DNA from: a virus
Lineage: Duplodnaviria > Heunggongvirae > Uroviricota > Caudoviricetes
IMG/VR virus record: IMGVR_UViG_2778261541_000006
Location: 1-60,273 of that record
Reading direction: 5' to 3' (one strand)
DNA: 60,273 nucleotides
This document shows, piece by piece, positions 46,089-46,155 of this stretch (within the stretch, counting starts at the first letter, position 1; each line of letters opens with the position of its first letter). The position numbers and the translations under genes were made by a program. A model generated the notes under the pieces. That model made no database searches and had not been told where the DNA came from. It saw only the letters and a program-made list of their open reading frames with translations.

Positions 46089-46155
46089 ATTGCTCTAATA
46101 AAAAACGTGATGAGTGTACATCACGTTTTAAAAATATGGAATTATTAGAGCAATA
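46089..46155. promoter_or_regulatory. two head-to-head C1 operators flanking a perfect palindrome
   Basis: ATTGCTCTAATAAAAAA (46089-46105) and AATTATTAGAGCAAT (46139-46154), with AAAACGTGATG-AGTGTAC-CATCACGTTTT between them. Confidence 0.55.

What the first reader, a model, noticed from the sequence alone, without database searches (positions are those of the whole stretch)
46089..46155. Head-to-head C1 operators enclosing a perfect 27-bp palindrome
Seen in sequence: ATTGCTCTAATAAAAAA and its inverted partner AATTATTAGAGCAAT flank AAAACGTGATG-AGTGTAC-CATCACGTTTT, a perfect hairpin with A and T runs on both sides. It lies between two co-directional minus-strand operons. Inference: a combined bidirectional terminator and C1-operated promoter, or a looped two-operator structure; the hairpin could equally be a second protein-binding site.
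Basis: seen in the sequence. Interest (0 to 1): 0.45.

Follow-up and report, generated by a model that had tools for sequence, protein, structure and literature searches.

The report
Known P1 operator pair around terminator
This is the already annotated pair of C1 repressor binding sites (Op86a/b) in front of the phage P1/P7 genes pmgR-pmgS, and the hairpin between them is an ordinary one-way transcription stop signal for the upstream genes, so the finding is real but largely known.

Summary
The window is a P1/P7-type phage that encodes C1 itself. The 66-bp element is identical to the P1 and P7 sequence. Those GenBank records already annotate the two sites as monovalent C1 operators OpmgRb/OpmgRa (former Op86b/a; P7 Op(sht[b/a])), with a predicted promoter PpmgR.

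The palindrome is an 11-bp inverted repeat around a 6-nt loop (28 bp), not a perfect 27-mer.

New here: across ten lineages down to about 70% identity, both operator cores and their 66-bp spacing are kept. The hairpin sequence changes but keeps pairing, through compensatory changes and G·U pairs that work only on the gene strand. A U6AUU tract always follows it. It therefore looks like a one-way intrinsic terminator for pmgN-pmgQ. It is not bidirectional and not a protein-binding palindrome.

Published P1vir RNA-seq shows a 4-7-fold step up from pmgQ to pmgR at 10 min, which supports a separate early promoter here. The annotated -10 is not conserved. A -10 in the hairpin loop is conserved and mirrors the Plpa/Olpa geometry. 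Either choice puts the start site inside the hairpin, so promoter-derived RNA escapes termination.

C1 binding, cooperativity and the transcript ends remain untested.

The parts
46089..46105 (+). C1 operator OpmgRb (former Op86b; P7 Op(sht[b])), ATTGCTCTAATAAAAAA. Its A-rich tail is, on the gene strand, the U-tract of the terminator. It lies downstream of either candidate start site.
   Evidence: Annotated protein_bind 'phage repressor C1' at the homologous position in P1 AF234172 and P7 AF503408. 14/17 match to the consensus. The core is conserved in 10 lineages.
46138..46154 (-). C1 operator OpmgRa (former Op86a; P7 Op(sht[a])), ATTGCTCTAATAATTCC. It starts 1 nt after the pmgQ stop codon and overlaps the -35 of either candidate promoter.
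46097..46129 (-). Intrinsic terminator of the upstream pmgN-pmgQ (hdm) unit. Gene-strand RNA: AAAACGUGAUG-UACACU-CAUCACGUUUU followed by UUAUU, with core stem CGUGAUG/CAUCACG and a U6AUU tail.
   Evidence: Fold -13.4 kcal/mol. 96.4% of cells paired across 10 lineages, with 3 pairs changed on both sides. G·U pairs only on the gene strand. Terminator score +1.0 to +28.4 on the gene strand and -18 to -75 on the antisense strand. Not annotated in the P1 or P7 records.
46125..46153 (-). PpmgR as annotated ('predicted') in P1: -35 TTGCTC (46153-46148), 17 bp, -10 TAAAAC (46130-46125). The expected start is about 46117-46118, in the hairpin loop.
   Evidence: It scores 7/12, and the -10 lacks T at -7. 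A at -11 is G in 5 of 10 lineages. The same hexamer pair recurs at OpmgT as predicted P2pmgT.
46113..46140 (-). Alternative candidate promoter: -35 TCCATA (46140-46135), 16 bp, -10 TACACT, which is the hairpin loop (46118-46113). The expected start is about 46105-46108, in the 3' arm.
   Evidence: It is the best sigma-70 match in 9 of 9 diverged lineages (TTTACT-16-TATCAT/TATTAT, 8-9/12). T1, A2 and T6 of the loop hexamer are invariant in all 10 lineages. It has the same operator/-35/spacer geometry as P1 Plpa/Olpa.
46156..46857 (-). pmgQ / hdmD, last gene of the upstream unit.
45856..46074 (-). pmgR / shtA (72 aa), first gene of the controlled unit. The SD sequence AAGGTG is at 46084-46079. 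[quoted passage not shown]
   Evidence: PMC9024508.
44592..45854 (-). pmgS / shtB (420 aa), second gene of the unit.
44538..44571 (-). Intrinsic terminator closing the pmgR-pmgS unit: ATGCTGGTGG-AGTGCTC-CCACCAGCAT followed by T7.
   Evidence: In the RNA-seq data, pap is 1.3-1.5 log2 units below pmgS at 10 min.
29877..30725 (+). c1, the repressor that acts on the two operators.
   Evidence: tblastn, 99.6% identity to P1 C1 over 283 aa.

Best explanation
The 81-bp pmgQ-pmgR intergenic region is a packed junction between two co-directional transcription units of a P1/P7-type phage.

(1) RNA polymerase arriving from pmgN-pmgQ transcribes the hairpin and its U6AUU tract and terminates there (inferred).

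(2) A weak sigma-70 promoter for pmgR-pmgS lies on the same DNA. Its -35 overlaps operator a. Its -10 overlaps either the 5' arm of the hairpin (the P1 annotation) or the loop (better conserved). Transcription therefore starts inside the hairpin. The new RNA lacks the 5' arm, cannot form the terminator, and runs on into pmgR-pmgS until the next terminator at about 44545. The geometry is shown; the function is inferred.

(3) In a lysogen, one C1 monomer sits on operator a (-35 region) and one on operator b (just downstream of the start, on top of the U-tract DNA). The corepressor Lxc probably stabilises them. Together they shut the promoter from both sides. When C1 is inactivated, pmgR-pmgS come on early. 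The operators themselves are the known Op86a/b of P1.
For: **Identity.** The 66-bp element is identical in P1 (L001) and P7 (L002). Those records annotate OpmgRa/b (former Op86a/b) and Op(sht[a/b]) as C1 binding sites controlling pmgR-pmgS, plus a predicted PpmgR. C1 is encoded in the window. The diverged phage JK004 keeps both C1 (76.7% identity) and the operators.

**Terminator.**
- The hairpin is kept at -11.4 to -16.5 kcal/mol on the gene strand in all lineages but falls to -5.8 on the antisense strand in four.
- Three stem pairs changed on both sides. Apart from L087, all 17 non-Watson-Crick cells are G·U on the gene strand, which means A·C on the other strand.
- The terminator score is positive on the gene strand and negative on the antisense strand in 10 of 10 lineages. 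Only 2 of 300 random 84-nt pieces of the window reach the element's score.
- L087 has a re-registered stem and is still followed by T6.

**Promoter.** In P1vir RNA-seq, log fold change at 10 min is 6.95-7.39 (WT) and 6.09-6.63 (dksA) for pmgO-pmgQ, against 9.02/9.99 and 9.00/9.09 for pmgR/pmgS. Read-through cannot produce a step up.

**Escape from termination.** RNA starting at either candidate start site has 0 kcal/mol of structure ahead of the U-tract. Read-through RNA folds at -13.4 kcal/mol.

**Spacing.** The operators span 66 bp edge to edge, with no indel, in 10 lineages.

**C1 biology.** 22 operators, an asymmetric 17-bp consensus, and Lxc as corepressor (PMC8546580).
Against: - No transcript 5' or 3' ends and no C1 binding data for this site were available.
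- Both candidate promoters are weak in the window (7/12). The consensus scan finds none at its threshold.
- The annotated -10 is not conserved.
- The RNA-seq values are fold changes against 0 min, not abundances. At 30 min the boundary shows only a 0.8 log2 step down, which pmgS does not share, so termination efficiency is not shown.
- The stem is AU-rich at its base. The core is only 7 bp at -8.5 kcal/mol, so termination may be partial.
- Three singleton variants in the P1-like population disrupt a stem pair.
Confidence: 0.8

Rival explanations
1. Bidirectional terminator: the hairpin stops transcription coming from both directions.
For: In the window and in P1 the inverted repeat is perfect, so both strands fold at -13.4 kcal/mol, and there are A/T runs on both sides.
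Against: On the plus strand the stem is followed by UUUUAAAAAUAU. The score there is -20.7 in the window and negative in 10 of 10 lineages. In 7 lineages the plus-strand stem carries A·C mismatches. Both neighbouring genes are on the minus strand.
Confidence: 0.03
2. The palindrome is a DNA site for a dimeric protein, that is, a second regulator acting between the two C1 operators.
For: It is a perfect 11-bp inverted repeat at a regulatory position, and its location is fixed in all lineages.
Against: 9 of the 11 stem pairs vary between lineages while pairing is kept. The wobble pairs break the DNA symmetry in 7 lineages. L087 has a different register. There is no match to the P1 late-promoter -22 box.
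Confidence: 0.05
3. The fixed two-operator geometry exists mainly for cooperative or looped C1 binding, with two monomers clamping or bending 66 bp. This is an addition to the main model, not an alternative to it.
For: The 66-bp outer spacing is invariant, with no indels, in 10 lineages that differ at many spacer positions. This holds even where the hairpin was re-registered.
Against: The spacing is also fixed by the promoter geometry and the hairpin. The centre-to-centre distance is 49 bp, about 4.7 helical turns, so it is not in phase for same-face contacts. The P1 record calls both sites monovalent. No binding data exist. Three P1-like loci have 67 bp.
Confidence: 0.25
4. There is no promoter here. 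pmgR-pmgS are read through from the upstream promoter, and the operators act only as roadblocks.
For: Both candidate promoters are weak (7/12), and the consensus scan found none.
Against: pmgR and pmgS are 2.0-2.9 log2 units above pmgQ at 10 min in two host strains. A conserved terminator sits between the units. A loop-centred promoter scoring 8-9/12 is conserved in the relatives.
Confidence: 0.06
5. In read-through RNA the two operator sequences pair with each other around the inner hairpin. This gives a 24-bp composite stem that could serve as an RNA processing or stability element.
For: The fold is -26.9 kcal/mol, z -9.6. Column pair 19/76 shows C-G to U-A in 3 lineages.
Against: 10 of the 13 outer pairs never vary, because they are the operator core, which is equally conserved at solitary operators elsewhere in the window. 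The terminal pair is unpaired in 6 of 10 lineages. L098 and L091 carry mismatches. The matching C-to-T changes are equally explained by lineage-specific operator variants.
Confidence: 0.05

Closest known systems
P1 operators OpmgRa/OpmgRb (former Op86a/b) with predicted PpmgR; P7 Op(sht[a])/Op(sht[b])
   Same: The 66-bp sequence, the position between pmgQ/hdmD and pmgR/shtA, and the orientation are all identical. This is the same element.
   Different: Nothing differs in the sequence. What this analysis adds is a reading of the unannotated hairpin as a gene-strand terminator, and doubt about which hexamer is the -10.
P1 Plpa/Olpa (former P94/Op94), the C1-controlled promoter of the late-promoter activator gene
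   Same: A single C1 operator whose last 3 nt overlap the -35 (TTGCTA), a 16-bp spacer, and -10 TATTAT. The loop-centred candidate at operator a in the relatives has the same geometry (TTTACT-16-TATTAT/TATCAT).
   Different: Plpa has no second downstream operator and no terminator hairpin over its -10 and start region. In the window itself the corresponding hexamers are weaker (TCCATA, TACACT).
Bivalent C1 operators of P1 (e.g. Oc1ab = former Op99a/b)
   Same: Two inverted 17-bp C1 sites acting on one promoter. Examples in this window are at 25424-25456 and 59990-60017.
   Different: In bivalent operators the two sites overlap to form one imperfect palindrome. Here 32 bp lie between the sites, holding a promoter and a terminator, and the record calls them monovalent.
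Canonical Rho-independent (intrinsic) terminators, e.g. the one between pmgS and pap in this window (44538-44571)
   Same: A stem-loop followed directly by a U-tract, downstream of a stop codon, on the gene strand only, and kept by compensatory changes.
   Different: The stem is shorter and more AU-rich: a 7-bp core at -8.5 kcal/mol against a 10-bp stem scored at -18.1 kcal/mol in its 40-nt window. The DNA is also shared with a promoter and an operator.

Membership tests
P1-type C1 repressor operators | Match to the asymmetric 17-bp consensus ATTGCTCTAATAAATTT | tested here: met
   Both sites match 14/17 with a perfect 13-nt core. The window has 15 matches at 3 or fewer mismatches against 0.30 expected. 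The consensus is quoted from PMC8546580.
P1-type C1 repressor operators | Cognate C1 repressor encoded by the same element | tested here: met
   c1 lies at 29877-30725(+), 99.6% identical to P1 C1.
P1-type C1 repressor operators | Positional homology to operators annotated in P1 and P7 | tested here: met
   They correspond to OpmgRb/OpmgRa in AF234172 (82201-82217 and 82152-82168) and Op(sht[b/a]) in AF503408. The 66-bp sequence is identical.
P1-type C1 repressor operators | Physical binding of C1 and repression of the adjacent promoter | not testable with these tools
   No binding data for Op86 were found in the searchable literature. The GenBank note states control of pmgR and pmgS without giving evidence.
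Bivalent (overlapping) C1 operator | Two 17-bp sites overlapping to form one imperfect palindrome | tested here: not met
   The sites are separated by 32 bp (46106-46137). The P1 record labels each as monovalent.
Intrinsic (Rho-independent) terminator | Stable stem-loop immediately followed by a U-tract on the transcribed strand, downstream of a stop codon | tested here: met
   Fold -13.4 kcal/mol (core -8.5), tail UUUUUUAUU, 26 nt after the pmgQ stop. The score is positive in 10 of 10 lineages. 2 of 300 random pieces of the window reach it.
Intrinsic (Rho-independent) terminator | Structure conserved through compensatory and wobble changes on the transcribed strand | tested here: met
   96.4% of cells are paired. 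3 pairs changed on both sides, and 3 more vary on one side through G·U only. The G·U pairs are valid only on the gene strand.
Intrinsic (Rho-independent) terminator | Transcript 3' ends at the U-tract | not testable with these tools
   No 3'-end map of P1 was found. Gene-level RNA-seq is uninformative on this point.
Bidirectional terminator | Functional hairpin plus U-tract on both strands, typically between convergent genes | tested here: not met
   The antisense score is -18 to -75 in 10 of 10 lineages. The flanking genes are co-directional.
Sigma-70 promoter | -35 and -10 hexamers at 16-18 bp spacing, with A at -11 and T at -7 | tested here: inconclusive
   The annotated TTGCTC-17-TAAAAC scores 7/12 and has no T at -7. 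The loop-centred TCCATA-16-TACACT scores 7/12 with both key bases, and 8-9/12 in the relatives. The tool's scan at 9/12 finds none. The RNA-seq step supports promoter activity.
P1 Lpa-dependent late promoter | Conserved 9-bp -22 box upstream of a -10 | tested here: not met
   The -22 boxes of LPhot (AAGTTACTT) and LPpac (ATGTGACTT) have no counterpart in 46075-46155.

The most novel reading that the evidence does not exclude
The functional -10 of the pmgR promoter is the loop of the terminator hairpin, not the hexamer annotated in P1. The same 28 bp would then end upstream transcripts as RNA and start downstream transcripts as DNA, with the start site in the 3' arm. Operator b doubles as the terminator's U-tract, so in a lysogen C1 bound there would both block promoter escape and roadblock any polymerase that leaks through the terminator. 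The invariant 66-bp spacing would reflect this three-in-one packing.
Probability: 0.35. Interest if true: 0.3.

Novelty: already known. Interest (0 to 1): 0.15.

Why it matters
It matters little beyond P1 biology. The operators and their target genes have been in the P1 and P7 GenBank annotation since the genome papers.

The useful increments are three. First, there is an unannotated but well-supported terminator separating the hdm (pmgN-pmgQ) and sht (pmgR-pmgS) units. Second, comparative evidence suggests the annotated PpmgR -10 may be misplaced. Third, this is a compact example of a promoter nested inside a terminator hairpin, which could be handy for people engineering P1 or designing insulated junctions.

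pmgR is essential for virion completion (PMC9024508), so its control region is relevant to P1-based tools.

Tried and rejected
- **P1 genome paper.** PMC523184 is not held, and no held text mentions Op86. I therefore could not check whether its terminator table lists this hairpin. The P1 GenBank record shows no terminator features in the 16 kb I viewed, so the missing annotation says nothing either way.
- **Scans for PmgR relatives.** The viral-contig scan returned only loci with a 100% identical protein, and the genome-contig scan returned two identical loci. Diverged lineages had to be fetched through PmgR homologs P0006-P0013 and Salmonella plasmids.
- **Built-in terminator scan.** It missed the hairpin. 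I attribute this to the fully extended stem absorbing four of the Ts. My own scans recovered it.
- **Rfam.** The only hit was a chance miRNA match far below threshold.
- **Pfam.** It gives nothing for PmgQ, PmgR or PmgS.
- **Late-promoter hypothesis.** Rejected.
- **Location of c1.** My first guess, near 59-60 kb, was wrong. The window runs antiparallel to P1 coordinates, and c1 is at 29.9-30.7 kb.
- **Outer operator-operator RNA stem.** Considered and rejected as a selected structure.

Full report
**What the window is.** A 1.4-kb stretch around the finding is 99.7% identical to phage P7 (AF503408) and 99.1% identical to phage P1 (AF234172). About 690 P1-like plasmids of Escherichia, Salmonella, Klebsiella and Shigella carry the same region. 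The window also encodes the P1 immunity proteins: C1 at 29877-30725(+), 99.6% identical to P1 C1; Coi at 29557-29763; and Lpa at 35629-35180(-).

**Check of the observation.**
- The sequence at 46089-46154 reads ATTGCTCTAATAAAAAACGTGATGAGTGTACATCACGTTTTAAAAATATGGAATTATTAGAGCAAT.
- The outer 13 nt on each side are exact reverse complements. The inner inverted repeat has 11-nt arms (46102-46112 and 46119-46129) around a 6-nt loop.
The element is a 28-bp stem-loop, not a perfect 27-bp palindrome.
- Both 17-mers match the C1 operator consensus with three mismatches, all in the 3' tail. The window has 15 such matches against 0.3 expected.
- The hairpin folds at -13.4 kcal/mol, z about -5 to -6.
- Both flanking genes are on the minus strand.

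**What is already known.**
- The P1 record annotates 'monovalent C1-controlled operator OpmgRb; corresponds to former Op86b' and 'OpmgRa; corresponds to former Op86a; controls expression of pmgR and pmgS'. It also annotates a 'predicted sigma 70 promoter PpmgR' (-35 TTGCTC, -10 TAAAAC) between pmgQ and pmgR.
- The P7 record annotates the same sites as Op(sht[b]) and Op(sht[a]).
- The 66-bp element in the window is base-for-base identical to both. So the operator pair and its promoter are known.
- Neither record annotates the hairpin. However, the P1 record carries no terminator features in the 16 kb I inspected, and the genome paper was not available. I cannot say whether the hairpin has been described in print.

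**What the hairpin is.**
- I collected ten distinct versions of the pmgQ-pmgR intergenic region. They are the window, Cronobacter phage JK004 (70% DNA identity), and eight lineages reached through PmgR proteins of 72-84% identity. Salmonella plasmids were added as extras.
- In gene-strand orientation they align without a single indel between the operators.
- The operator cores are nearly invariant. The hairpin arms differ at 9 of 11 pairs yet stay paired in 96.4% of cells. Three pairs changed on both sides: A-U/G-C at columns 43/64 and 45/62, and G-C/A-U at 48/59.
- Apart from L087, whose stem has shifted register, all 17 non-Watson-Crick cells are G·U on the gene strand and hence A·C on the other strand.
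- Accordingly, the gene-strand fold stays at -11.4 to -16.5 kcal/mol in every lineage. The antisense fold drops to -5.8 in four.
- L087 still has a 10-bp stem followed by T6.
- Every version is followed directly by T5-6ATT.
- I applied a d'Aubenton-Carafa-type terminator score, with the formula recalled from memory. It is +1.0 to +28.4 on the gene strand and -18 to -75 on the antisense strand in 10 of 10 lineages. Only 2 of 300 random 84-nt pieces of the window reach the window's +10.7.
- This pattern marks a structure selected as RNA on the gene strand with a U-tract, which is a one-way intrinsic terminator for the pmgN-pmgQ unit. It argues against a bidirectional terminator and against a sequence-specific protein site.
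- Rfam has no family here, and the P1 late-promoter -22 box is absent.

**The promoter.**
- Published P1vir RNA-seq (PMC8201110, Table S1) gives limma log fold changes against 0 min. At 10 min the values are 6.95-7.39 (WT) and 6.09-6.63 (dksA) for pmgO, pmgP, ppp and pmgQ. They are 9.02 and 9.99 (WT) and 9.00 and 9.09 (dksA) for pmgR and pmgS.
- Read-through cannot produce a 4-7-fold step up at the boundary, so transcription starts in the intergenic region early in lytic growth. This fits a C1-controlled early promoter. The evidence is indirect because it is gene-level and fold-change based.
- Where the promoter sits is less clear. The annotated pair TTGCTC-17-TAAAAC scores 7/12, lacks T at -7, and has G at -11 in five lineages.
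- In all nine diverged lineages the best sigma-70 match is TTTACT-like, then 16-17 bp, then TATCAT or TATTAT, and that -10 is the hairpin loop. T1, A2 and T6 of this hexamer are invariant in all ten lineages, including the window (TACACT), while the three middle positions vary.
- This geometry is the same as at P1 Plpa/Olpa, which the record labels a 'sigma 70 promoter' rather than a predicted one. There the -35 overlaps the last 3 nt of the operator, the spacer is 16 bp, and the -10 is TATTAT.
- In favour of the annotated version, the same TTGCTC-17-TAAAAC pair recurs at OpmgT.
- I leave this open, at roughly even odds in P1 itself.
- With either -10 the start site falls inside the hairpin, at about 46117-46118 or about 46105-46108. 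RNA begun there has no structure ahead of the U-tract (0 kcal/mol), whereas read-through RNA forms the -13.4 kcal/mol hairpin. The promoter's own transcripts should therefore escape the terminator.

**How it most likely works.**
- The intergenic region is fully packed, in this order: pmgQ stop, 1 nt, operator a, 8 nt, a 28-bp hairpin whose last 4 bp and following U-tract are the tail of operator b, the rest of operator b, 14 nt with the SD sequence AAGGTG, then the pmgR ATG.
- Upstream transcripts terminate. The nested promoter drives pmgR-pmgS as far as a strong terminator at 44538-44571.
- C1 on operator a covers the -35 region. C1 on operator b sits at +1 to +18 or at +14 to +30.
- Lxc is known to strengthen C1-operator complexes (PMC8546580).
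- Shown here: identity with the annotated operators, presence of C1, structure conservation and strand asymmetry, and invariant spacing.
- Inferred: termination, the start site position, repression from both sides, and any cooperativity.

**Looping and cooperativity.**
- The only relevant observation is that the 66-bp outer spacing is invariant in ten lineages. Three P1-like loci have 67 bp through a homopolymer change.
- The spacing is equally explained by the promoter and hairpin packed between the sites.
- The 49-bp centre-to-centre distance is about 4.7 turns.
- This remains untested.

**Verdict.** The operator pair is the known Op86a/b of P1. The hairpin is an ordinary, one-way intrinsic terminator. 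The modest additions are the comparative support for that terminator and the doubt about the annotated -10.

Noticed in passing
window 40570-43746 (+); wider region about 37650-43822: A 1058-aa ORF is a type I restriction enzyme R subunit of the EcoR124 type (Pfam HSDR_N, SWI2_SNF2, T1R_D3-like, EcoR124_C). It lies in a stretch not matched by the P1 pieces held. The P1 record notes that the DNA next to Op88 is 96-98% identical to sequence downstream of the EcoDXXI and R124 hsd loci. This phage may therefore carry the hsd cargo of which P1 keeps only a remnant.
   Followed up: partly
window about 43940-43975 (+): A plus-strand terminator-like hairpin (ATATGCCGCGCCCCTTGCGGCATGTTTTTTTATTT, -14.0 kcal/mol) lies next to operator OpmgT/Op88 (43997-44013) and faces the end of hsdR. 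It is antisense to the pap/pmgT direction.
   Followed up: no
window 44538-44571 (-): A strong intrinsic terminator sits between pmgS and pap: a 10-bp stem plus T7, scored at -18.1 kcal/mol in its 40-nt window. It is not annotated in P1 or P7. It fits pap being 1.3-1.5 log2 units below pmgS at 10 min.
   Followed up: partly
window 48861-48877 (+): The counterpart of P1 operator Oppp/Op83 (CATGCACTAATTAATTT, 4 mismatches to the consensus) reads TATGTACTAATTAATTT here, with 5 mismatches. It is a weak or decaying operator in front of pmgN. It has the same inverted, downstream orientation as OpmgRb.
   Followed up: partly
window 25424-25456 and 59990-60017: There are two pairs of overlapping, oppositely oriented C1 operator matches, which is the bivalent type. 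They contrast with the separated pair studied here.
   Followed up: no
L087 (ENA ERZ27235605 k119_98014) 780-848: In this lineage the terminator stem is re-registered (CGGCATGGTG-TAT-CATCATGCCG, -14.0 kcal/mol core), while the total operator-to-operator length stays at 66 bp.
   Followed up: yes
L026, L034, L066 (IMG/VR P1-like contigs): These loci carry 67-bp versions of the element, with one extra T in the U-tract or one extra A in the A-run. L040, L046 and L077 carry single stem-disrupting substitutions. It is unclear whether these are real polymorphisms or assembly errors.
   Followed up: no
L086, L088, L091 (A2 columns 19 and 76): In three diverged lineages both operators carry the same C-to-T change at operator position 5 (GTTC instead of GCTC). 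This suggests lineage-specific co-variation of operators with their C1 variant. It does not suggest RNA pairing.
   Followed up: no
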